Shown here piece by piece: positions 18,060-37,616 of a stretch of 64,000 bases of DNA. Source of the DNA: a virus (lineage: Duplodnaviria > Heunggongvirae > Uroviricota > Caudoviricetes > Crassvirales); the IMG/VR virus record IMGVR_UViG_2974729448_000001, positions 3,318-67,317 of that record. One strand, written 5' to 3'. The notes under the pieces are model-generated. The model was given only the letters and a program-made list of their open reading frames with translations. It did no database searches and was not told where the DNA came from. Positions within the stretch are counted from its first letter, which is position 1. Each line of letters opens with the position of its first letter. Both the position numbers and the translations under genes were made by a program.

Positions 18060-18233
18060 AATATTGCTTAGTTATAATATACTAAATATATCTGTCCTCC
18101 TAAAGGAAACATACTAACAATGTCCTCCTTCTTAATATCAAGCTCTATAGCTTGTTTTATAACATCTCTGACTGTTGCACCTACAACAGCAGTAATTACT
18201 TTTCTACTCATTCTTATTATACTTAATTAATTG

Positions 18234-18304
18234 GGGGCAAGCAAGGAGTCGAACCTTATCTTTAGCCTATGAAACTAATATGCTACCATTACACCAACTT
18301 GCAA
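18234..18304 (-). tRNA. tRNA-Met/Ile2-like (anticodon CAU)
   Basis: Hand fold on minus strand: D-arm GTGT/AATGGTA/GCAT, anticodon stem TTAGT/GCTAA, loop TTCATAG, T-arm TAAGG-TTCGACT-CCTTG. Acceptor pairs imperfectly at positions 1-2, so ends are +/-2 nt. Confidence 0.5.
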
Positions 18305-18305
18305 G

Positions 18306-18377
18306 AGCAGGTAGAGAGAATTGAACTCTCATCAAAAGATTGGAAATCTTCTACACTAACCATTGTGCTACACCTGC
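18306..18377 (-). tRNA. tRNA-Gly (anticodon UCC)
   Basis: Acceptor GCAGGTG/TACCTGC, D-arm GCAC..GTGT, anticodon stem GAAGA/TCTTT with loop TTTCCAA, T-arm GAGAG-TTCAATT-CTCTC. Confidence 0.6.
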
Positions 18378-18382
18378 ATAAA

Positions 18383-18826
18383 TCATCCTTTACATAGTCT
18401 AAATAAGTACTTATACTTATTAATATTATGAATAAAGGTCTCAGTCTCACTTCTTAATCCAGCATTTACCTTATCAGAGGGTAAACTTTCATAAAAGTCT
18501 TCTACTTTAGGTAGCAATGAATGCAACATCATTGAACCATCTGTATCTTCAATAGCTATACCTTTTATATCATTTGGACCAAACTGACCATATATTCCTT
18601 GGCATTCCTCAGCTATGCTATCTTGATAATCACTTAATATCTCAAGAAATTCATCAAGTCTTTCATGTATATTCATTGCTGGGGCAGCCCAATGTAGATT
18701 CTTTGCTTTAGTTTTATAACCTTCAAGTATAGAAATATACTGTGTAAACTTCTTTAGTTTTGAAGTCTCTTCAATATGTTCTTCTTTAGAAATTAAAGGA
18801 GTATAATCTCCAAATATATTATCCAT
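18383..18826 (-). CDS. hypothetical protein
   Basis: 147-aa ORF lying inside the tRNA array. Confidence 0.4.
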   Translation of the reverse strand: MDNIFGDYTPLISKEEHIEETSKLKKFTQYISILEGYKTKAKNLHWAAPAMNIHERLDEFLEILSDYQDSIAEECQGIYGQFGPNDIKGIAIEDTDGSMMLHSLLPKVEDFYESLPSDKVNAGLRSETETFIHNINKYKYLFRLCKG

Positions 18827-18891
18827 AGTATTATTATTTAATAATGCAAATGTAAGTATTATAATCTACATATGCAAGTAATTTACAATAT

Positions 18892-19104
18892 TTATTTAGC
18901 CTCTTTTAAATCTTTAAATATATCTTCCAAGAAAGTAAGAGAGACTATAGTTCCAGCTATATCAGCTAAGAAGTTACTTAAGAACTCACTACTTCTACTC
19001 CTAAAGAGTCTTGACTCTACCTTTAATAATTCTTTGAAGATAGTAATCTGATTCCTGTTTAGTATCTCCTGATTTCTTATTATTAAGTCTAACTTGTCTT
19101 CCAT
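18892..19104 (-). CDS. hypothetical small protein
   Basis: 70-aa ORF inside tRNA array. Confidence 0.3.
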   Translation of the reverse strand: MEDKLDLIIRNQEILNRNQITIFKELLKVESRLFRSRSSEFLSNFLADIAGTIVSLTFLEDIFKDLKEAK

Positions 19105-19117
19105 AAATAGTTATTAG

Positions 19118-19191
19118 TACTGAGGGTAGGATTTGAACCTACTGTCTTGAGTGTATAAGACTCCTGCATTTACCACTTGTGCTACCTCAGC
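19118..19191 (-). tRNA. tRNA-Ile (anticodon UAU)
   Basis: Acceptor GCTGAGG/CCTCAGT, anticodon stem GGAGT/ACTCA (one mismatch) with loop CTTATAC, T-arm GTAGG-TTCAAAT-CCTAC. Confidence 0.5.
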
Positions 19192-19202
19192 TTGTATTAT
19201 AC

Positions 19203-19523
19203 TTAACCAGTATAACTTCTCCTACTTGCATCAGTAGGATTAATAATAGTTCCATTTATTTCAGTCCTGTCGACTTGTTCTACTTCCTTATTTTCAAACT
19301 CTATTTCAAACATATTAGATAAGGACTGAAACTCTGCCTTTCTACATTTTAAAGTACTCTCAAGAGTTCTTACTTCCTGTCTGGCTTTATCAAGACTTTC
19401 TTCTAAGTTTATTATATCATAATACTCTTTTATGATATATTCCTTAGCTTTAGTACTCATTAAATCTGGATGCTTAAAATGAACATCCTTTATTTTACTT
19501 TTATCTTCTACTTGTACCTTCAT
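19203..19523 (-). CDS. hypothetical coiled-coil protein
   Basis: 106-aa ORF inside tRNA array. Confidence 0.35.
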   Translation of the reverse strand: MKVQVEDKSKIKDVHFKHPDLMSTKAKEYIIKEYYDIINLEESLDKARQEVRTLESTLKCRKAEFQSLSNMFEIEFENKEVEQVDRTEINGTIINPTDASRRSYTG

Positions 19524-19537
19524 ATATTACTATTTTG

Positions 19538-19612
19538 CTGGGATGATAGGACTTGAACCTACTATCACCTGATTAACAGTCAGGGGCTGTATACCACTTA
19601 AGCTTCATCCCA
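19538..19612 (-). tRNA. tRNA-Asn (anticodon GUU)
   Basis: Acceptor TGGGATG/CATCCCA, anticodon stem CCTGA/TCAGG with loop CTGTTAA, T-arm GTAGG-TTCAAGT-CCTAT. Confidence 0.6.
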
Positions 19613-19682
19613 ATGTGGGGCTTATAAGGTAGCCCCAAACCTATCACCTAAAAAACACACATCATGAAAACATAGTGTGGAT

Positions 19683-19751
19683 ACATGTGGGACTTGAACC
19701 CCAACTTCACTTTGCAAAAGTGATGTGTTAGCCATTTACACTACATGACCC
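19683..19751 (-). tRNA. tRNA-like, probably degenerate (anticodon arm reads UGC/Ala but T-stem and acceptor pair poorly)
   Basis: D-arm GTGT/AAATGGCTA/ACAC and anticodon arm TCACT-TTTGCAA-AGTGA are clean. The T-stem has only 3 GC pairs (GGG/CCC) and no 7-bp acceptor could be paired by hand. Coordinates approximate. Confidence 0.3.
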
Positions 19752-19856
19752 ATATTGAGTTTTACTTTTATCCCAAATGCCAAGGTAAAAGAAAACCATT
19801 CATTAACTTGTAGTACTCCAAATTAGCAAATGTTTTATCCAAAGAAAAACCTTTTG

Positions 19857-19930
19857 TAGAGTAGAGAAGACTCGAACTTCCAATGTCTGCATCCCAAATG
19901 CAGGGGGTTAACCAATTACCCAACTACTCT
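19857..19930 (-). tRNA. tRNA-Pro (anticodon UGG)
   Basis: Acceptor AGAGTAG/CTACTCT, D-stem GGGT/ACCC, anticodon stem CTGCA/TGCAG with loop TTTGGGA, T-arm GGAAG-TTCGAGT-CTTCT. Confidence 0.65.
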
Positions 19931-19936
19931 ATGTTG

Positions 19937-20023
19937 CGGAGAATACAGGACTTGAACCTGTACATCCTTTAAGACTACTGACAGTTTAGCAAACTGCTCC
20001 CTTACCATTAGGGTTAATTCTCC
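19937..20023 (-). tRNA. tRNA-Ser (anticodon GCU), type II with long variable arm
   Basis: Acceptor GGAGAAT/ATTCTCC, anticodon stem GCAGT/ACTGT with loop TTGCTAA, ~19-nt variable region, T-arm ACAGG-TTCAAGT-CCTGT. 87 nt. Confidence 0.55.
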
Positions 20024-20211
20024 ATTTTTAGATATAATCCACAGTGACATTTATCATTTTCTCTGTAATCACTACATGGACATTTCTTATCTTCTCCTGT
20101 ATTATGACAGGGGCATTCCCCATCATTTATCTCACATCTCTTCAGGATAGAGTTTACTACTTTATCATTAGGGTTTAAAACCCAACCTTCCTTTCTTAGT
20201 ATGTTTACCAT
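20014..20211 (-). CDS. ferredoxin-thioredoxin-reductase catalytic-subunit-like (FtrC-like) CPC/CPC/CHC protein
   Basis: 65 aa from internal Met (MVNILRKEGWVLNPND...ECPCHNTGEDKKCPCSDYRENDKCHCGLYL). The GW(V/Y)LNPD...CPC(H/R)...CPC...(K/E)CHC(G/M)L(Y/F)L pattern matches plant/cyanobacterial FtrC. The track start at 20280 would overlap tRNA-Asp, so the internal start is preferred. Last 3 codons overlap the 5' end of tRNA-Ser. Confidence 0.5.
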   Translation of the reverse strand: MVNILRKEGWVLNPNDKVVNSILKRCEINDGECPCHNTGEDKKCPCSDYRENDKCHCGLYLKMEN

Positions 20212-20230
20212 AATTATTATCTTAAATTTG

Positions 20231-20304
20231 CAGTCTATGAGGGAATTGAACCCTCCATCTCCACATTGACAGTGTGGCATGTTAAACCTCTACACCAATA
20301 GACT
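20231..20304 (-). tRNA. tRNA-Asp (anticodon GUC)
   Basis: Acceptor AGTCTAT/ATAGACT, D-stem GTGT/ACAT, anticodon stem CCACA/TGTGG with loop CTGTCAA, T-arm GAGGG-TTCAATT-CCCTC. Confidence 0.65.
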
Positions 20305-20309
20305 ATAAG

Positions 20310-20383
20310 TTGCAGGGAGTGGATTTGAACCACTGTTCTCCTGTGAATGTGCACAGGTGAGATAACCACTTCTCCACCCTACG
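20310..20383 (-). tRNA. unusual tRNA with CAU-containing non-canonical anticodon loop (initiator-like features; possible pseudogene)
   Basis: Acceptor CGTAGGG/CCCTGCA with a C1.A72 mismatch. D-stem GAGA/TCTC (A11:U24). Anticodon region CCTGTG-CACATT-CACAGG folds as a 6-bp stem with 6-nt loop, or a 5-bp stem with 8-nt loop GCACATTC, never 5+7. T-arm AGTGG-TTCAAAT-CCACT. Confidence 0.45.
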
Positions 20384-20495
20384 AGACTTTGATTAACATT
20401 GATTACACTCTCTATTGCAACTTAAGAGTTTTTCAGAACCAAAGTTGTCAAATACTGCAAGATACTTGACAGTAACTTCTTGCACAGTTACTTTG

Positions 20496-20569
20496 TAATG
20501 GGTAGGGGATTTGAACCCCTAATGACTACCTTGAAAGAGTAGTGACTTAACCAATTTGTCCAACCCATC
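20496..20569 (-). tRNA. tRNA-Glu (anticodon UUC)
   Basis: Acceptor GATGGGT/ACCCATT, anticodon stem CTACT/GGTAG with loop CTTTCAA, T-arm AGGGG-TTCAAAT-CCCCT. Confidence 0.6.
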
Positions 20570-20682
20570 ATTTAGATATTCTATCTTCACAGACCAAATA
20601 TCTTAAAACAGAAAGGAGGTGTCCTTAAATTATCACTCCTGATAAATGAACCCTCTTATAATTTCAAACCAACATATTTTAG

Positions 20683-20753
20683 TACCCCCTCAAGGAGTCG
20701 AACCTTGTCACTAACTTTAGAAGAGTCATGTGCTTCCAATACACCAAGGAGGC
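20683..20753 (-). tRNA. tRNA-Arg (anticodon UCU)
   Basis: Acceptor GCCTCCT/AGGGGGT, D-stem GTGT/GCAC, anticodon stem TGACT/AGTTA with loop CTTCTAA, T-arm CAAGG-TTCGACT-CCTTG. Confidence 0.6.
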
Positions 20754-20766
20754 ATCCTTATTATTG

Positions 20767-20837
20767 TTACCCCAACCAGATTTGAACTGATAATCTAACA
20801 TCCAAAATGTTGTGTGTTACCATTACACCATGGGGCA
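20767..20837 (-). tRNA. tRNA-Gln (anticodon UUG)
   Basis: Acceptor TGCCCCA/TGGGGTA, D-stem GTGT/ACAC, anticodon stem CAACA/TGTTA (one mismatch) with loop TTTTGGA, T-arm ATCAG-TTCAAAT-CTGGT. Confidence 0.55.
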
Positions 20838-26235: not shown

Positions 26236-26243
26236 CTAAATAA

Positions 26244-26330
26244 GAATACATAGCTTAATGGTAAAGCTTGGTGTGATAAACTGTAACTCATGTCTAACAG
26301 TGATATAGGTTCAAATCCTGTTGTATTCTT
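26244..26330 (+). ncRNA. tRNA-like element without a canonical anticodon arm
   Basis: Perfect acceptor GAATACA/TGTATTC, D-arm GCTT-AATGGTA-AAGC, T-arm ATAGG-TTCAAAT-CCTGT. The 36 nt between D- and T-arms contain no 5-bp stem + 7-nt loop; an exhaustive hand search was done. The only helix is ACTGT-(12 nt)-ACAGT. Confidence 0.4.
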
Positions 26331-26339
26331 ATTTATTTT

Positions 26340-26643
26340 GGGGCATGATTTGGTTTTGATTGCTGATTATTTGGTAAGAGAACATGCAGAGACTGATGGA
26401 GAGACATCAAAACAATAACTGACAACACTTATAGAGTTGCTGCCTAAATTAGGCTAAGCAGCACTTGCTTTGAAACAGAAAGGTGCAAACAAAGGATTTC
26501 TTGCATAGATTAATGCAAGTGGTGGATTGTGTTGATTTCTGGTCAACCCCAGTGGATAACTAACCACATCAAAAATAGTAAGCATGTGTAATTCTTTTAT
26601 TAAAGATTGGTAAGACAAGGGTTCGAGTCCCTTATGCTCCACC
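26340..26643 (+). ncRNA. ssrA: tmRNA (SsrA)
   Basis: 5' end GGGGCATGATTTGG resembles E. coli GGGGCUGAUUCUGG. 3' end GGTTCGAGTCCCTTATGCTCCACC has a T-arm plus acceptor pairing with the 5' end, including the G3.U70 wobble. Internal tag-like frame ...D-N-T-Y-R-V-A-A-TAA (26421..26447). The 64-aa minus-strand ORF 26454..26648 overlaps and is discounted. Confidence 0.75.
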
Positions 26644-26794
26644 TGCATAGATTTCTTTGTTGAGGGTCTTTAGGATGGGTAAATAATAAGAACCTGAGTG
26701 CTGGTAGGTAAGTTACTTTTCTTGTTTTAGGTTGTACTTTGTTCTTAGTAAAGAATCAAAGCAATTAGAAGATAACTCTTAATAAACATAATAT

Positions 26795-28903: not shown

Positions 28904-30325
28904 ATGTGTTCTAAATTAAATCCGTCATTAAAACCATCATTAAAATTAGATGATGTTAGATTGGCTGGTGGTTCTGGTGCTAAAGCAGCTAAACAATCAG
29001 AAATAGAATTGCTAAGAAGAGTAGTTTTAGCCAATCTACTTTGGGAAGATGTTGCCTATATAGATGGCAAGAGTGTAGCTGATGAAATCAAAAGACTAAT
29101 TCCTCTATGTAAAGGTAAGGATGTAGCTAATCTTGCTCTTGAAGCAAGAATCAATCAGAAGCTCAGACATACTCCACTATTTATAGCAGTAGAGATGTGC
29201 AGATATCCAGAGCATAAGACATATGTAAAGGAATTACTTCCTATGATTATTACAAGAGCTGACATGTTGACAGACTTCTTGGCATTATATTGGAAGGATG
29301 GAAAGAAGCCTATCTGTAATCAAGCTAAGAAAGGATTGGCAGCAGCTTTTCATAATTTCAATGAATACAAGTTTGCTAAATATGACAGGGATGCAGCCAT
29401 TAAGTTAAGAGATGTCATGTTCTTATGTAGACCTAAGCCAAATAATGAACAGGAAGCTGAACTATTCAAAAAGATAGCTGACAGGACTCTTACCCCACCT
29501 GAAACTTGGGAAGTATTACTTTCTGCTGGTAAAGATAAGAAAGAGACTTGGCAATACCTTATTAATAATGGAAAGATTGGAGGTCTTGCAATGCTGAGGA
29601 ATATTAGTAATATGATGAAAGCTAATGTAGACAAGGAAATCATAAGATATGGTCTTAGAAGTTTAAAGTCCTCAATGCTTTTACCTCTTGATTTCTTTAA
29701 ATCTGCAAGAATGGCTACTGAATTTAAGAGAGATATTGAAGATGCAATGATTGAATCATATAAATCTCTTCCTAAATTGAAAGGAAATACCTTATTCATT
29801 GTAGATGTATCAGGTTCCATGCTTTCTAATTTATCAGGTAAATCATCATTTTCAAGACTGGATGCTGCCTGTGCAATGGCTATGTTGGCTATTAACCAGT
29901 GTGAGAGATATGAACTTGTAACTACAGCAGGAGATGATTATAGAAGAATTCAATCATCTGAACATATTAAATATCCTGAGAGAGGATTTGGAGTGTTCAA
30001 TCAAATAAAACAGTCAATGGGTAAGATTGGTAGTGGAGGTATCTTTACTAAACAATGTCTTGACTGGTGTAGGAAGAAGTTTGGAGGAGTCAAGTTTGAT
30101 AGAATAATCATATTCTCAGATTCACAAGATATTGATTATCACTATGATAAGACTATACTTCCTGAGCCTTTTGGTAAATGTAATTACATCTGTGATGTTT
30201 CAGCAGAACTTAGAGGTGTGAATTATAAAGGCAGATGGACAGCAGAAATTGGTGGTTTTTCAGAGCATTTCCTTACTTATATTGCAGCTTTAGAAGGATT
30301 GCAGAATAAGTTTGAGGAACAATAA
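28904..30325 (+). CDS. rsr: Ro60/Rsr orthologue (TROVE domain + vWA domain)
   Basis: 473-aa ORF. PLFIAVEMCRYPEHK, MLRNISNMMKANV and the MIDAS region LFIVDVSGSM...AACAMAMLAI align by eye with Ro60 (as I recall it: PMLFALAI..., LLRNLGKMTANSV, LLAVDVSASM...AAAMCMVV). N-terminal ~300 aa are helical-repeat-like, C-terminal ~170 aa vWA. Confidence 0.75.
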   Translation: MCSKLNPSLKPSLKLDDVRLAGGSGAKAAKQSEIELLRRVVLANLLWEDVAYIDGKSVADEIKRLIPLCKGKDVANLALEARINQKLRHTPLFIAVEMCRYPEHKTYVKELLPMIITRADMLTDFLALYWKDGKKPICNQAKKGLAAAFHNFNEYKFAKYDRDAAIKLRDVMFLCRPKPNNEQEAELFKKIADRTLTPPETWEVLLSAGKDKKETWQYLINNGKIGGLAMLRNISNMMKANVDKEIIRYGLRSLKSSMLLPLDFFKSARMATEFKRDIEDAMIESYKSLPKLKGNTLFIVDVSGSMLSNLSGKSSFSRLDAACAMAMLAINQCERYELVTTAGDDYRRIQSSEHIKYPERGFGVFNQIKQSMGKIGSGGIFTKQCLDWCRKKFGGVKFDRIIIFSDSQDIDYHYDKTILPEPFGKCNYICDVSAELRGVNYKGRWTAEIGGFSEHFLTYIAALEGLQNKFEEQ

Positions 30326-30512
30326 TATAATGTCATTAGTGTATTACAGATTTACATCAATAATCTTTTAAATTATCCAGATAACTATAATCTGTTAAAT
30401 GTTCTATGGCATTTTTCTTATAAAGACATCATTAGTGTAGCACAGAGTTACTTCATAAATAGTCATAAGCAAAACTCACTCTTTGCACTATTCTATGATG
30501 TCTTTTTTCTTT

Positions 30513-30654
30513 GGAGGGATAGCTCAGTTGGTAGAGCAGCAGTATAAATGAAAATTACACTTTAGTCATGGTTCCACAGCAGTGTTGGTGTAGATTAGAG
30601 TTACTTCAAAGCCTTGTAAGCTGCGGGTCATTGGTTCAAGTCCAATTCCCTCCA
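30513..30654 (+). ncRNA. tRNA-like RNA with ~76-nt insertion replacing the anticodon loop; candidate Y RNA (YrlA-like) partner of Ro60
   Basis: GGAGGGA-TA-GCTC-AGTTGGTA-GAGC-A-GCAGT[76-nt insert]GCTGC-GGGTC-ATTGG-TTCAAGT-CCAAT-TCCCTCC-A. Canonical acceptor, D-arm, T-arm and anticodon-stem-like pairing, with no anticodon loop. Lies 188 nt downstream of the Ro60 gene. Confidence 0.5.
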
Positions 30655-30847
30655 CAAAAGATTAGTGATTATAACACTTACTTCAACAATAATTTAACAG
30701 AAAAAAAAAATTGGTATTTTTTCAATATATAATTTAAAAATTAGTGTTATAGCATGTCCTATCTTAAGGCTGTCAGTGTTTCTGGCAGCCTTTTTTATTG
30801 TAAGTTTTTCTTATAAATATATTATTAACATCTAAAAAAAAAAAATC

Positions 30848-31204
30848 ATGAAAGAAAATGAAGCAAAAGAGTTAGTTAAATTGTTAGGTCTTGATAAACC
30901 TATGGACCCAGATGTAATTAAGCTTCTATTTGAAGCTGTTAAAGAGATTGGAGATAAAGTGGGAGATGAAAATGCAGAGGAGGCAAGAGACACAATAGAT
31001 AAGGCTATGGACAGTCTTAAAGATAACCAAACAAAGGCTATGATTATCTCTTATCTACTTAGCAAGCTCCCCTTGGAGCTGACTAATTTCCTAATGGAAA
31101 ATATGAAGGAATTAGTTATGGCAAGTACTCTAAGTAATATTACTGGAGGTTCTGAAGATGACTCTATTCAGTCTAAACTATTAGAATTGATGAAGAGTAA
31201 CTAA
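30848..31204 (+). CDS. hypothetical acidic helical protein
   Basis: 118-aa ORF preceded by an A12 tract. Confidence 0.4.
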   Translation: MKENEAKELVKLLGLDKPMDPDVIKLLFEAVKEIGDKVGDENAEEARDTIDKAMDSLKDNQTKAMIISYLLSKLPLELTNFLMENMKELVMASTLSNITGGSEDDSIQSKLLELMKSN

Positions 31205-36625: not shown

Positions 36626-37333
36626 ATGAAAGGATTAATTTTAGCTAAGTCAGGTTTTGGAAAGTCAACTTCTATTGGGGAGATACCAGAACTTGGGCTG
36701 AAGGGTTTAGACCCCAAAGTGACTTATTTAATAAGTTGTGTGAATAAACCTTTGCCTTTTAGAGGTGGAGGCAGTAAGTACAAAGTTACCACTCTGAAAG
36801 ATATTAGTAAAGGTAACAGGATTATAACCAATGATGCAAAAGAGGTGGCTCAAATTATTGAGATATTAGCCAGTCCTCAGTCTCCTTTTACTAATATAGT
36901 ACTTGATGATATGAATTATATCAGTCAGGACTTCTATATGAAGAATGCAATGAAAGGTGGTTGGGACACTCCTAAGCAAATTGGTTATGGAATGGGATTA
37001 ATCTTTGATGCAATCAACCTTGTGCCAGAAAATAAGAACATAATCTGTCTTGCTCATTATGAAGAGTATAAAGATAAGAATGGTGATAGTATCTCTTATA
37101 AATATAAGAGTACTGGAAACATGGTTGATTCATATATTACTCCTGAAGGTAAATTTGAAGTAGTTCTCTATGGTAAATCTTCTTTTGATTCAAAAGAGAA
37201 GAAATCTATTAGAGAATTTGTTACCAATGATGATGGAGTTTATCCTGCAAAATCTCCTGTTGGAATGTTCCCTTTATATATTCCTAATGATTTGGGTCTT
37301 GTGGTAGAAAAGGCACAAGAATACTATGGATAG
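36626..37333 (+). CDS. P-loop ATPase (AAA_24/Sak4-like recombination ATPase candidate)
   Basis: 235-aa ORF starting MKGLILAKSGFGKST (N-terminal Walker A as in phage AAA_24 ATPases). Confidence 0.45.
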   Translation: MKGLILAKSGFGKSTSIGEIPELGLKGLDPKVTYLISCVNKPLPFRGGGSKYKVTTLKDISKGNRIITNDAKEVAQIIEILASPQSPFTNIVLDDMNYISQDFYMKNAMKGGWDTPKQIGYGMGLIFDAINLVPENKNIICLAHYEEYKDKNGDSISYKYKSTGNMVDSYITPEGKFEVVLYGKSSFDSKEKKSIREFVTNDDGVYPAKSPVGMFPLYIPNDLGLVVEKAQEYYG

Positions 37334-37616
37334 GGAAGAGGTACTTAGGATAAATAAACTTGTTTATTCTATAGGAGCTTATGGGGCTAATGCAGTGTAT
37401 GCTTCTGATATAAGTAACTTATTAACAAGTTATTGTCAGGAACATGGAAAACCTGTAGAAGAAACAGTGATGTTTGTCTCTTTTCTAATTAACAATAGGA
37501 TAGCACATCCTTACTTCATAGAAGCTTTAGATTACTATGAAAAGAAATATTCTATTGTTAAATTATGGAGTAAACCTGACTATGATGGTCGAAGAAGTAT
37601 AATTTCAGTATATTAA
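37326..37616 (+). CDS. hypothetical protein
   Basis: 96-aa ORF. Confidence 0.35.
   Translation: MDREEVLRINKLVYSIGAYGANAVYASDISNLLTSYCQEHGKPVEETVMFVSFLINNRIAHPYFIEALDYYEKKYSIVKLWSKPDYDGRRSIISVY

What the first reader, a model, noticed from the sequence alone, without database searches (positions are those of the whole stretch)
28904..30660. Phage-encoded Ro60/Rsr orthologue with an adjacent tRNA-mimic RNA (candidate Ro60-Y RNA module)
The 473-aa ORF has the full Ro60 architecture: a TROVE-like helical region followed by a vWA domain with the MIDAS motif DVSGSM. Several blocks line up with Ro60 as I remember it: PLFIAVEMCRY, MLRNISNMMKANV and AACAMAMLAI. 188 nt downstream is a 142-nt RNA gene that is tRNA-like everywhere except the anticodon loop. 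Bacterial Ro60 orthologues are normally encoded next to YrlA-type Y RNAs, and those RNAs have an effector domain that mimics a tRNA. Ro60-Y RNA pairs are rare in phages and unexpected in a Bacteroidetes/crAss-like-type phage. Together with the tmRNA 2 kb upstream, this phage seems to carry its own RNA-surveillance toolkit.
Basis: partly seen in the sequence, partly recalled or inferred. Interest (0 to 1): 0.85.

Follow-up and report, generated by a model that had tools for sequence, protein, structure and literature searches.

The report
Phage Ro60 gene with Y-RNA array
A crAss-like gut phage encodes a relative of the Ro60 RNA-binding protein, and right after the gene lie four unannotated structured RNAs, one built into a complete tRNA, that look like its Y-RNA partners, a known kind of system in a new form.

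Summary
The window is crAss-like phage cr106_1. The 473-aa ORF (28904-30325) is a real Ro60 relative. It scores above the Pfam TROVE threshold and aligns over its full length to the solved Ro60 of Thermus phage phiLo. GenBank already calls it a TROVE protein, and its crAss001 homologue is a published early gene.

The 142-nt tRNA-like RNA (30513-30654) is also real, conserved and unannotated. Its insert sits in the 5' strand of the anticodon stem, not in the loop. A covarying anticodon stem and a 7-nt loop remain.

The insert is a circularly permuted copy of a ~85-nt module. The module has two covarying helices around a conserved internal loop (UAGUG.AG / UGUUCY), followed by GUUACUUCA. It occurs three more times as stand-alone units (30329-30413, 30422-30505, 30658-30765). 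A terminator follows the last unit.

A model of the module gave 140 hits near TROVE genes in related loci, all on the gene's strand. The same motifs flank Rfam YrlA hits beside TROVE genes of Xanthomonas and Caulobacter phages.

Best reading: a Ro60 plus Y-RNA-like array whose tRNA unit has a new topology relative to YrlA. Binding and function are inferred. This is a new variant of a known kind.

The parts
28904..30325 (+). Ro60-like protein gene (473 aa): TROVE/HEAT-repeat ring region followed by a vWA domain with a DxSxS MIDAS motif (DVSGSM)
   Evidence: Pfam TROVE 44.6 bits (cut-off 23). vWA_Ro60 22.5 bits, below its cut-off of 27.7. phmmer against PDB: phiLo phiRo60 9L5Y/9KOP, E 3.7e-15, aligned 24-464 against 25-483. 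A profile of 14 homologues hits phiRo60 at 1.4e-38, human/Xenopus Ro60 at about 1.5e-9 and D. radiodurans Rsr at 3e-5. PHROG 850 'RNA-binding protein', 2.8e-28. Annotated as a TROVE domain protein in NC_055871.
30329..30413 (+). Y-RNA-like stand-alone unit 1. Basal helix Pb (AUGUCAU/AUGGCAU), internal loop UAGUG.. / AAAUGUUCU, helix Pa (ACAGAUU/AAUCUGU), then UACAUCA opening the apical loop
   Evidence: Covariance model R1: 81.8 bits, E 1.7e-16. The helices covary across the family.
30422..30505 (+). Y-RNA-like stand-alone unit 2. Pb AAAGACAUCAU/AUGAUGUCUUU, loop UAGUGUAG / ACUAUUCU, Pa GCACAGAGU/ACUCUUUGC, then UACUUCA
   Evidence: R1: 73.9 bits, E 1.2e-14. The MFE fold reproduces Pb and Pa, z = -2.9.
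30513..30654 (+). Unit 3: a complete normal-topology tRNA scaffold. It has acceptor GGAGGGA/UCCCUCC, D arm, variable loop GGGUC, T arm and discriminator A. It carries a circularly permuted copy of the module inside the 5' strand of its anticodon stem, and the anticodon-like loop CUUGUAA is retained.
   Evidence: Sequence. 52 of 65 loci hold a homologue. Parsing of 36 unique variants. Covariation of every helix, including the split anticodon stem. ARAGORN finds it only with the intron option.
30559..30608 (+). The permuted module within unit 3. Pa 5' strand ACUUUAGUC (30559-30567), AUGGUUCC, Pb hairpin CCACA-GCAG-UGUUGG (30575-30589; its closing GG is the GG of the next motif), UGGUGUA, Pa 3' strand GAUUAGAGU (30593-30601), UACUUCA (30602-30608)
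   Evidence: It has the same three motifs and two helices as units 1, 2 and 4, in permuted order. Pa pairs covary.
30658..30765 (+). Y-RNA-like stand-alone unit 4, with a long A/U-rich apical loop. Pb AAGAU/AUCUU, UAGUGAU, Pa UAUAACACU/AGUGUUAUA, UACUUCA, and CAUGUCCU on the return strand
   Evidence: Direct-repeat family D1 and inverted repeat I3. R1 gives only a weak partial hit of 16.2 bits because of the 60-nt loop. The MFE fold gives Pb and Pa. The Pa sequence covaries relative to the other units (ACACU/AGUGU against AGAGU/ACUCU).
30766..30799 (+). Intrinsic terminator closing the transcription unit (stem AAGGCUGUCAG/CUGGCAGCCUU plus a T run)
   Evidence: 11-bp stem with 6 G-C pairs and a T tract. 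No terminator was found between the CDS and the array.

Best explanation
This is a phage Ro60 / Y-RNA-like operon. An early transcript encodes a Ro60 homologue (TROVE ring plus vWA domain) and, directly downstream, four small structured RNAs that end at one terminator.

Each RNA carries the same module: a basal helix, a conserved distorted internal loop (U[A/G]GUG.AG opposite UGUUCY, with a 2-bp extension that covaries as AG/CU or GG/CC), a second helix, and the single-stranded tail GUUACUUCA. This module is the diverged counterpart of the Ro60-binding stem of bacterial and phage YrlA Y RNAs. There is a graded series: GNCGAA(N)G in YrlA, UGGCGUAG in Caulobacter phage, UGGUGUAG in Xanthomonas phage, and UAGUGUAG in crAss-like phages. 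I infer that it docks the phage Ro60.

Three units are plain stem / internal loop / stem RNAs, comparable to YrlB or the phiLo Yrls. The fourth joins the module to a tRNA body and so plays the part of the tRNA-like YrlA. Its topology is different, however. The RNA ends sit at a genuine acceptor stem, where RNase P, 3' processing and CCA addition could act. The module is closed by a tetraloop and branches from the anticodon stem, and an anticodon stem-loop is kept.

By analogy with D. radiodurans and Salmonella Rsr-Y RNA-PNPase, and with phiLo phiRo60-Yrl-PNPase, the RNPs probably tether or sequester a host RNA enzyme early in infection. The tRNA unit would supply the effector-binding face.

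Shown here: the homology of the protein; the structure, conservation and covariation of the RNAs; and their strict linkage to TROVE genes. Inferred: binding, processing and the host target.
For: Protein:
- Pfam TROVE is above threshold.
- Full-length alignment to the crystallised phiLo phiRo60, E 3.7e-15.
- The family profile hits phiRo60 at 1.4e-38, human/Xenopus Ro60 at about 1.5e-9 and Rsr at 3e-5.
- TROVE is found in 14 of 14 homologues and VWA_2 in 13 of 14.

RNA module:
- Four same-strand copies, found nowhere else in the 64 kb: 3 pattern matches against 0.06 expected.
- Model R1 scores units 1 and 2 at E 1e-16 and 1e-14.
- Seed alignment: 91.5% of cells paired against 31-43% for slid controls, and 14 of 18 pairs carry compensatory changes.
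- On 113 further hits: 94.5% paired against 27-44%. That alignment is fitted to the model.

Linkage to TROVE genes:
- All 113 hits in 63 TROVE loci are on the gene's strand. Nearly all lie immediately after its stop codon.
- 27 more hits, all on the gene's strand, in 13 of 22 loci whose TROVE protein is 51-68% identical.
- Loci with TROVE proteins only 39-42% identical carry the module upstream on the same strand. One has an exact GGCGAAG.
- 30 of 33 viral contigs with the exact motif are TROVE contigs from the first scan, and a 31st encodes TROVE elsewhere.

Link to Y RNAs:
- In Xanthomonas phage 10KY502B, five tandem units upstream of the TROVE gene have the layout Pb-UGGUG.AG-Pa-UUACUUC-...-Pa'-UGUUCC-Pb'.
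- Three of those units enclose Rfam YrlA hits (55.9, 46.7 and 25 bits).
- CcrColossus has nine tandem UGGCG.AG-type motifs (six exactly UGGCGUAG), some with UGUUCCC/AGUUCCC partner strands, and YrlA hits.

Fused unit:
- Every helix covaries, including the anticodon stem across the insertion.
- It is the circular permutation of the YrlA layout.

Transcription unit:
- There is no terminator until 30766.
- The crAss001 homologue is an early gene (PMC8375218).

Precedent:
- phiLo phiRo60 binds two adjacent Yrl RNAs and host PNPase (PMC12135203).
- YrlA is encoded within 4 kb of Ro60 on the same strand (PMC4201824).
Against: - No binding, expression or processing data exist for these RNAs.
- Rfam YrlA and Y_RNA gave no hit in 30200-30900 even at E<=10.
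- The canonical GNCGAA / CGAA motif is absent from cr106_1. Its equivalence to UAGUG.AG rests on my reading of positional correspondence and a graded series, not on a statistical alignment.
- Some TROVE loci (L049, L054-L056, L063 and several jumbo-phage loci) have no module within 2.5-3 kb.
- In jumbo-phage contigs the stand-alone modules lie inside tRNA arrays, far from the TROVE gene. A tRNA-related role independent of Ro60 is therefore not excluded.
- The retained, canonical-looking anticodon loop is not explained by a pure Y-RNA role.
- The NCBIfam Rsr equivalog scores only 13 bits against a cut-off of 900, so the protein is a distant homologue rather than an orthologue in the strict sense.
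Confidence: 0.72

Rival explanations
1. Unit 3 is an intron-containing tRNA gene. The ~69-nt insert is removed, by an unknown endonuclease and ligase or by self-cleavage, to give a working tRNA: Thr-UGU in cr106_1 and Lys-UUU in many relatives. The gene's position next to the TROVE gene is incidental, or reflects Ro60 helping to process it.
For: Joining the flanks of the insert restores a perfect 5-bp anticodon stem in nearly every lineage, with covariation on both sides of the insert. Many variants have a canonical 7-nt loop with U33 and a purine at position 37, such as CUUUUAA. All 36 virtually spliced variants are called tRNAs by ARAGORN, although this follows from how they were constructed. 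The window has no other tRNA-Thr or tRNA-Lys.
Against: - The insert is a free-standing structured RNA elsewhere. It occurs three times in this locus and more than 100 times in related loci, in circularly permuted form. That marks it as a functional domain rather than a spacer to be discarded.
- It matches no group I or group II intron or ribozyme family in Rfam.
- Its position inside the stem strand fits neither bacterial group I tRNA introns, which lie in the anticodon loop and are at least ~200 nt, nor a bulge-helix-bulge site.
- The anticodon changes freely on identical tRNA bodies: Lys, His, Glu and Ser all occur on the acceptor stem GAGGAGU.
- The loop is 9 nt in crAss001 and lacks U33 in cr112_1.
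- One L190 relative has the module in place of the whole anticodon loop.
Confidence: 0.1
2. The repeated module is not a Ro60 partner. It is an element of phage tRNA arrays, for example a processing signal, a self-cleaving ribozyme, or the binding site of another protein, and it merely tends to lie near the TROVE gene.
For: In jumbo-phage contigs L219, L221 and L222 the stand-alone modules are interspersed among 12-24 tRNA genes, with no TROVE gene within 2-3 kb. In L041 a normal tRNA sits inside the apical loop of a module. Circular permutation of a conserved core is also typical of small ribozymes.
Against: - In about 75 loci the module lies directly beside the TROVE gene, on its strand.
- This linkage persists down to 39% protein identity, with the array either upstream or downstream.
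- The contig of L222 does encode a TROVE protein.
- The same motifs frame bona fide YrlA hits.
- No Rfam ribozyme family matched.
Confidence: 0.1
3. The shared 24-nt motif (TTAGTG..AGAGTTACTTCA) acts at the DNA level, for instance as an early promoter for the virion RNA polymerase or as a recombination or homing site. The apparent RNA structures would then be by-products.
For: The motif marks recombination junctions. L025 and L051 lack the 5' half of the tRNA. L018 carries a foreign 3' half after the motif. In L044 an HNH-like ORF runs into the motif. The region is early-transcribed, and no early promoter motif is known for crAss-like phages (10.1101/2020.03.07.982082).
Against: A DNA-level site does not predict compensatory changes in two helices whose partner strands lie 40-100 nt away, yet these are abundant. 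The motif is absent from the rest of the 64-kb window, including the other plus-strand genes upstream of the TROVE gene. Recombination between repeated units is expected whatever their function.
Confidence: 0.05
4. Unit 3 and its neighbours are decaying remnants of tRNA genes and duplications, and have no function.
For: The anticodon loop is degenerate in crAss001 and cr112_1. Some loci carry truncated or chimeric copies.
Against: The RNA is conserved about as well as or better than the adjacent protein gene at the DNA level: 75-88% against 76-78%. There are invariant motifs and compensatory substitutions in every helix across lineages whose TROVE protein is only 40-90% identical.
Confidence: 0.03

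Closest known systems
YrlA (Rfam RF02553), the tRNA-like Y RNA bound by bacterial Rsr/Ro60 (Chen et al. 2014, PMC4201824)
   Same: It is encoded within 4 kb of the Ro60 gene, on the same strand, and often alongside further Y-like RNAs. It combines a Ro60-binding stem / internal loop / stem with tRNA-type D and T arms. The conserved loop motif occupies the same position as GNCGAA(N)G, and UUAC may correspond to the conserved YUAY. In Xanthomonas and Caulobacter phages, the motifs seen here flank real YrlA hits.
   Different: - There is no RF02553 hit at E<=10.
- The motif is UAGUG.AG, not GNCGAA.
- The topology is the circular permutation of YrlA. YrlA has its ends in the Ro60-binding stem (the anticodon-stem position) and a closed acceptor-like hairpin. 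Unit 3 has its ends at a true 7-bp acceptor stem plus discriminator, and its module is closed by a tetraloop.
- Unit 3 keeps an anticodon stem-loop, which YrlA lacks.
Thermus phage phiLo phiRo60 with Yrl1/Yrl2 (PMC12135203; PDB 9L5Y, 9KOP)
   Same: It is the closest solved protein: E 3.7e-15 for the single sequence and 1.4e-38 for the family profile, aligned over the full length with the same DVSGSM MIDAS motif. It is phage-encoded, and adjacent stem-bulge-stem RNAs bind it. It forms complexes with host PNPase.
   Different: The phiLo Yrls lie upstream of the gene, carry a CGAA motif, and were not described as having a tRNA body. The proteins are only about 24% identical. Nothing has been tested experimentally for the crAss-like system.
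Deinococcus radiodurans Rsr with Yrn1
   Same: It is a Ro60 ring with a Y RNA that has some tRNA-like features. According to PMC4201824, these include a possible anticodon arm, and the orientation of the D and T arms relative to the RNA ends differs from YrlA. It is therefore a precedent for more than one tRNA-derived topology.
   Different: Yrn1 lacks a full D arm and has a 6-nt 'anticodon' loop, and its ends form the Rsr-binding stem. Unit 3 is a complete cloverleaf. The family profile hits Rsr (2NVO) only at 3e-5.
Intron-containing tRNA genes (bacterial group I introns in anticodon loops; archaeal bulge-helix-bulge introns)
   Same: A tRNA gene is interrupted in the anticodon arm, and virtual removal of the insert restores a cloverleaf.
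   Different: The insert is about 55-72 nt and lies within the stem strand. It matches no intron family. It exists as an independent, permuted, covarying RNA elsewhere.

Membership tests
Ro60 / Rsr (TROVE-vWA RNA-binding ring proteins) | TROVE (HEAT-repeat ring) domain | tested here: met
   Pfam PF05731: 44.6 bits against a cut-off of 23, although only residues 196-244 match. It matches in 14 of 14 family members. The alignment to the phiRo60 crystal-structure sequence covers residues 24-464.
Ro60 / Rsr (TROVE-vWA RNA-binding ring proteins) | C-terminal vWA domain with a MIDAS DxSxS motif | tested here: met
   DVSGSM at residues 301-306 aligns to the DVSGSM of phiRo60, and D301, S303 and S305 are invariant in A5. 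Pfam vWA_Ro60 scores 22.5 bits, below its cut-off of 27.7, and VWA_2 scores 20.2 against 27, so the domain profile alone is sub-threshold.
Ro60 / Rsr (TROVE-vWA RNA-binding ring proteins) | Detectable homology to experimentally defined Ro60 proteins | tested here: met
   The family profile against PDB gives phiRo60 at 1.4e-38, human 9NEN at 1.4e-9, Xenopus 1YVP at 1.7e-9 and D. radiodurans Rsr 2NVO at 3.2e-5.
Ro60 / Rsr (TROVE-vWA RNA-binding ring proteins) | Equivalog-level match to bacterial Rsr (NCBIfam NF041674) | tested here: not met
   13.4 bits against a cut-off of 900. The protein is a distant homologue, not a strict Rsr orthologue.
Ro60 / Rsr (TROVE-vWA RNA-binding ring proteins) | Closed ring fold with a central cavity; binds Y RNA on its outer surface | not tested
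   No structure prediction was run, because the full-length alignment to a solved Ro60 was judged sufficient. RNA binding cannot be tested with these tools.
YrlA Y RNA (RF02553) | Match to the family covariance model | tested here: not met
   No YrlA or Y_RNA hit in window 30200-30900 at E<=10 or at gathering score in the whole window. Positive controls beside other phage TROVE genes scored 30-56 bits, E 3e-10 to 1e-2. All of these are below the gathering score of 69.
YrlA Y RNA (RF02553) | GNCGAAN0-1G motif at the Ro60-binding stem | tested here: not met
   It is absent from 30326-30800. The positionally equivalent motif is UAGUG.AG or UGGUGUAG. An exact GGCGAAG occurs in the homologous module of L190, and UGGCGUAG occurs in CcrColossus.
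YrlA Y RNA (RF02553) | tRNA-like D and T arms with tertiary-pair nucleotides | tested here: met
   Unit 3 has U8, A14, G15/C48, G18G19, G53, UUCAAGU and C61. The T stem covaries.
YrlA Y RNA (RF02553) | Permuted layout: RNA ends in the Ro60-binding stem, and the acceptor-like stem closed by a loop | tested here: not met
   The ends of unit 3 are at a 7-bp acceptor stem, 6 of whose 7 pairs covary. The module is closed by a GCAG or GUAA loop.
YrlA Y RNA (RF02553) | Encoded within about 4 kb of the Ro60 gene, on the same strand | tested here: met
   The array starts 4 nt after the stop codon, on the same strand. The same holds in the related loci.
Y RNA in the general sense | 80-130 nt RNA in which the 5' and 3' ends form a stem, then a conserved internal loop or bulge, then a second stem | tested here: met
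   Units 1, 2 and 4 are 84-108 nt with the layout Pb / conserved loop / Pa, supported by covariation.
Y RNA in the general sense | Physically bound by the cognate Ro60 | not testable with these tools
   Only genomic linkage and homology of motifs are available.
Functional (decoding) tRNA | Cloverleaf recognised by standard tRNA finders | tested here: not met
   Default ARAGORN and the Rfam tRNA model at gathering score miss it. The best Rfam tRNA score is 16.6 bits, on a false register. It is found only with ARAGORN's intron option, and the solutions are inconsistent between variants.
Functional (decoding) tRNA | Anticodon and loop geometry conserved among orthologues | tested here: not met
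   The loops read as Lys, Thr, His, Glu, Ser, Asn or Pro on near-identical bodies. crAss001 has a 9-nt loop, and cr112_1 has a loop without U33.

The most novel reading that the evidence does not exclude
Unit 3 is a dual-purpose molecule. It would be a tRNA that is processed, given a CCA end and perhaps charged, while permanently carrying a Ro60-docking arm on its anticodon stem. The phage Ro60 would then be tethered to an exposed, fast-evolving anticodon loop. This could serve as a decoy or shield against host anticodon nucleases or other tRNA-directed defences, which would explain why the loop keeps its tRNA geometry while its sequence changes between close relatives.

A related evolutionary reading is that this non-permuted form is the ancestral state from which the permuted YrlA Y RNAs arose.
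Probability: 0.12. Interest if true: 0.85.

Novelty: new variant of a known kind. Interest (0 to 1): 0.6.

Why it matters
crAss-like phages are among the most abundant viruses of the human gut. crAss001 is one of the few with a culture system, so the prediction can be tested directly: pull down gp96 and look for these RNAs.

The finding does four things.
- It gives the unexplained early 'TROVE protein' a set of candidate RNA partners.
- It fills 500-900 nt of 'empty' intergenic DNA in crAss001-like genomes with covarying RNA genes that no annotation or Rfam model currently reports.
- It shows that the Ro60-binding module of Y RNAs is a portable unit. It can stand alone, enclose a permuted tRNA-like domain (YrlA), or be grafted onto an intact tRNA. 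That bears on how tRNA-like Y RNAs evolved.
- It provides a motif set (U[A/G]G[U/C]G.AG, GUUACUUC, UGUUCY) for finding Y-like RNAs that the YrlA model misses.

From my own knowledge, not tested here: commensal Ro60 orthologues have been proposed as triggers of anti-Ro60 autoimmunity. An abundant gut-phage Ro60 RNP would be of interest in that context.

Tried and rejected
- Rfam, at gathering score on the whole window and at E<=10 on 30200-30900, found no Y RNA, YrlA, intron or ribozyme. Only spurious miRNA/sRNA hits and a false-register tRNA hit of 16.6 bits appeared.
- I first read the insert as an anticodon-loop insertion or a simple long helix. RNAfold z-scores were not significant. Comparative analysis, not thermodynamics, revealed the structure.
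- Group I, bulge-helix-bulge and hammerhead readings of the insert were rejected. The insert is too small. No conserved terminal G ends it. CUGANGA occurs in only a few variants. The geometry is a three-way junction, not a bulge-helix-bulge.
- The promoter idea could not be tested. The phi14:2 study found no common motif for early promoters.
- Two viral-contig pattern scans were wasted. One pattern, with 14 specified bases, was too loose and gave random hits. The other had the wrong gap length, although by luck it yielded L190.
- The weak R1 hit at 37489-37561 lies inside ORF 37326-37616 and breaks Pa. I rejected it as chance.
- A possible degenerate module after the tmRNA (about 26690-26750) was not supported by R1.
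- The supplementary YrlA alignments of PMC4201824 are not held.
- I did not run the large protein searches or a structure prediction. The PDB profile hits already settle the protein's family.


Full report
IDENTITY OF THE WINDOW. The region is 100% identical to crAss-like phage cr106_1 (NC_055871 / MT774378, Mahstovirus faecalis, Steigviridae). It is 76-78% identical at the DNA level to Bacteroides phage crAss001, the PhiCrAssBcn isolates and cr112_1. In every record the ORF is annotated 'TROVE domain-containing protein / RNA-binding protein', and nothing is annotated in the 520-900 nt that follow it.

THE PROTEIN.
- Pfam TROVE scores 44.6 bits (cut-off 23). vWA_Ro60 and VWA_2 are just under their cut-offs.
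- PHROG 850 'RNA-binding protein' scores 2.8e-28.
- The NCBIfam Rsr equivalog fails, at 13 bits against 900.
- The best solved relative is the Ro60 homologue of Thermus phage phiLo (9L5Y/9KOP). It aligns at residues 24-464 of 473 against 25-483 of 500, E 3.7e-15, with an identical DVSGSM.
- A profile of 14 homologues (A5) hits phiRo60 at 1.4e-38, human and Xenopus Ro60 at about 1.5e-9, and D. radiodurans Rsr at 3e-5.

The protein is therefore a genuine, if distant, Ro60 homologue. That is not new. The crAss001 homologue was reported as an early-transcribed 'possible ribonucleoprotein component' (PMC8375218). Homologues occur in 83 phage GenBank records and in at least 574 viral-contig stretches.

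THE tRNA-LIKE RNA. At 30513-30654 the sequence reads as follows:
- acceptor stem 5' strand GGAGGGA, then UA;
- D arm GCUC-AGUUGGUA-GAGC, then A;
- GCAG, a ~69-nt insert, then C;
- anticodon-like loop CUUGUAA, then GCUGC;
- variable loop GGGUC;
- T arm AUUGG-UUCAAGU-CCAAU;
- acceptor stem 3' strand UCCCUCC, then the discriminator A.

Default ARAGORN and Rfam miss it. nhmmer finds it downstream of the TROVE gene in 52 of 65 loci.

I parsed the 36 unique variants. In all of them the insert lies within the 5' strand of the anticodon stem, usually after two stem nucleotides. Both parts of the split strand covary with the 3' strand. Examples are GC|AGC-GCUGC, GU|UGC-GCAAC, CU|GGU-ACCAG, CG|AGC-GCUCG, UG|GGA-UCCCA and GU|GCA-UGCAC.

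On a MAFFT alignment of 19 diverse variants with a hand-written structure, 95.2% of cells pair, against 35-47% when the partners are slid. Pairs with compensatory changes number 6 of 7 in the acceptor stem, 2 of 2 and 3 of 3 in the two parts of the anticodon stem, 4 of 9 in Pa, and 4 of 5 in the T stem.

The loop usually has tRNA geometry, but its 'anticodon' is unconstrained. On near-identical bodies it reads Lys-UUU (the commonest), Thr-UGU (here), His, Glu, Ser, Asn or Pro. crAss001 has a 9-nt loop, and cr112_1 has a loop without U33.

THE INSERT IS A COPY OF A REPEATED MODULE. A 24-nt motif (TTAGTG..AGAGTTACTTCA) occurs four times in 30336-30685, all on the + strand. It occurs nowhere else in the 64 kb: 3 matches at up to 3 mismatches, against 0.06 expected.

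Reading the related loci showed a complete unit with this order:
1. Pb 5' strand;
2. UAGUG plus 2-3 nt;
3. one strand of Pa, ending AGAGU;
4. UACUUCA;
5. a variable apical loop;
6. the other strand of Pa (ACUCU..);
7. ..UGUUCU;
8. Pb 3' strand.

In the tRNA the same parts occur in circularly permuted order: Pa strand, AUGGUUCC, a Pb hairpin closed by GCAG or GUAA, UGGUG.., Pa strand, UACUUCA.

Fourteen hand-picked stand-alone units aligned cleanly (A2). With the two-helix structure, 91.5% of cells pair against 31-43% for slid controls, and 14 of 18 pairs show compensatory change.

A covariance model built from them (R1) scores window 30329-30413 at 81.8 bits (E 1.7e-16) and 30422-30505 at 73.9 bits (E 1.2e-14). 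The fourth unit, 30658-30765, has a 60-nt apical loop and is caught only weakly. By eye it has Pb AAGAU/AUCUU and a covarying Pa UAUAACACU/AGUGUUAUA.

Two further pairs, AG/CU or GG/CC, extend Pb into the 'loop' and covary between unit types (my reading).

The units are packed 2-11 nt apart. An intrinsic terminator at 30766-30792 follows the last one, and none lies between the CDS and the array.

LINKAGE TO THE TROVE GENE.
- R1 gave 113 hits (E<=0.01) in 63 TROVE loci, covering 440 kb on both strands. All are on the gene's strand. Nearly all lie immediately after its stop codon; the exception is L057, where they lie upstream. 94.5% of cells are paired on that model-fitted alignment.
- In 22 further loci whose TROVE proteins are 51-68% identical, there were 27 hits in 13 loci, all on the gene's strand.
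- L065 (42% identity) and L190 (39%) carry the module upstream on the same strand.
- Of 33 viral contigs with an exact match to the motif, 30 are TROVE contigs from the first scan. One more (L222) encodes TROVE elsewhere in a 376-kb genome.
- Exceptions exist. Some loci with 58-66% identical proteins have only a terminator after the gene. In jumbo-phage contigs the modules lie inside large tRNA arrays.

CONNECTION TO KNOWN Y RNAs. Rfam holds YrlA (RF02553). It found nothing in cr106_1. It did hit tandem RNAs upstream of the TROVE genes of Xanthomonas phage 10KY502B (55.9, 46.7 and 25 bits), Caulobacter phage CcrColossus and Rhizobium phage RHph_TM30. All of these scores are below the gathering score of 69.

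The Xanthomonas region consists of five units with the layout Pb-UGGUG(U/A)AG-Pa-UUACUUC-[apical part]-Pa'-..UGUUCC-Pb'. In three of them the apical part is the permuted tRNA-like domain that the YrlA model recognises. The other two are short. These are the same three motifs as in the crAss units.

CcrColossus has nine tandem UGGCG.AG-type motifs (six exactly UGGCGUAG), several with UGUUCCC or AGUUCCC return strands nearby. One L190 unit has an exact GGCGAAG.

The published Rsr-binding motif is GNCGAAN0-1G, located near the 5' stem (PMC4201824). The series GGCGAA(N)G, UGGCGUAG, UGGUGUAG, UAGUGUAG argues that the crAss loop is the diverged Ro60-binding site. That equivalence is my inference from position and gradation.

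Opening the acceptor-like hairpin of a YrlA-type unit and closing Pb would give exactly the order seen in unit 3. Unit 3 is therefore the circular permutation of YrlA, with an anticodon stem-loop in addition. In L190 a fused unit has the module in place of the whole anticodon loop (closing helix CAAGA/UCUUG), which is the pure permutation.

MECHANISM.
Shown: homology of the protein to Ro60; four covarying RNA units in one transcription unit with the gene; and their evolutionary linkage to TROVE genes.

Inferred:
(a) The phage Ro60 binds the conserved loop-helix module.
(b) Unit 3 is released by the tRNA-processing enzymes and presents a tRNA face to another factor.
(c) By analogy with the Rsr-Y RNA-PNPase complex and with phiRo60-Yrl-PNPase, which attenuates PNPase (PMC12135203), the RNPs act early in infection to redirect or neutralise a host RNA enzyme.

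The retained but rapidly changing anticodon loop is not explained by this model. It is the basis of the more speculative decoy or shield reading.

RIVALS. The intron-containing-tRNA reading explains the intact anticodon stem. It does not explain the free-standing permuted copies, the unconstrained anticodon, or the absence of any intron signature. A tRNA-array element unrelated to Ro60 fits the jumbo-phage contexts but not the tight linkage to TROVE genes elsewhere. A DNA-level motif (promoter or recombination site) does not predict the covariation. Simple decay is excluded by the level of conservation.

VERDICT. The protein was already known, and phage Ro60 with Y-like RNAs is an established kind of system. 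What is new is the unannotated Y-RNA-like array in crAss001-type phages, invisible to Rfam, and above all a Y-like RNA built on an intact, non-permuted tRNA scaffold. I rate it a new variant of a known kind, of moderate to good interest, and directly testable in the crAss001 / B. intestinalis system.

Noticed in passing
window 26340-26644 (+): A phage-encoded tmRNA (Rfam 74.3 bits; ARAGORN tag peptide DNTYRVAA*), immediately preceded by tRNA-Arg(CCU) and an 88-nt tRNA-Ile(GAU). It is annotated in RefSeq. L062 has a tmRNA in the equivalent position.
   Followed up: partly
window 26243-26330 (+): The tRNA-Ile(GAU) is 88 nt long, which is unusually long for a class I tRNA (Rfam 46.5 bits). cr112_1 has a 91-nt tRNA-Ile in the equivalent region. 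It may carry an extra arm or an insertion.
   Followed up: no
window 18233-20837 (-): An array of about 12 tRNA genes on the minus strand. One is called tRNA-??? by ARAGORN, with a 2-nt 'anticodon' (20309-20383). Another is found only by Rfam (19538-19612, 55.8 bits).
   Followed up: no
window ~26690-26750 (+): Just after the tmRNA lies a sequence with GAGUG...GUUACUUU...UUUGUUCUUAG, which resembles a degenerate copy of the module. Model R1 did not detect it at E<=10.
   Followed up: partly
L002 (cr112_1) 4412-4924; L044 ~4400-4500: HNH endonuclease genes are inserted between the TROVE gene and the RNA array. In cr112_1 the insertion overlaps the TROVE stop codon. In L044 a truncated HNH-like ORF reads straight into the AGAGTTACTTCA motif and replaces the 5' half of the tRNA.
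   Followed up: partly
L025/L051 ~4536-4696; L018 5061-5222: These are recombinant forms of the fused unit. L025 and L051 join the 5' part of a stand-alone unit to the 3' half of the tRNA unit, so the tRNA 5' half is lost. L018 has the normal 5' half and module, followed by the 3' half of a different tRNA-like sequence whose acceptor strand no longer pairs. The shared motif therefore acts as a recombination point.
   Followed up: partly
L041 2771-2921 and 6-253: A stand-alone module has a complete ordinary tRNA (2805-2876) inside its apical loop, which is the reverse nesting of unit 3. The same small contig has a group I intron (Rfam 85.9 bits) at 6-253, upstream of the TROVE gene.
   Followed up: partly
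L219, L221, L222 (jumbo-phage contigs of 142-376 kb): Stand-alone modules are interspersed within arrays of 12-24 tRNA genes, far from any TROVE gene. In the contig of L222 the TROVE gene lies elsewhere, at about 127-133 kb of the contig (L290).
   Followed up: partly
L226 (Caulobacter phage CcrColossus) 1598-1665; L228 (Xanthomonas phage 10KY502B) 2259-2326: Two 68-nt features annotated in GenBank as tRNA-Gln and tRNA-Thr overlap regions that Rfam scores as YrlA-like, or lie inside the tandem Y-like units. ARAGORN does not call these two annotated tRNAs (none in L226, only a tRNA-Glu at 2038-2107 in L228). They are probably mis-annotated tRNA-like domains of Y RNAs.
   Followed up: no
10.1101/2020.03.07.982082 (phage phi14:2): [quoted passage not shown] It may be worth checking them for structured RNAs of this kind.
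   Followed up: no
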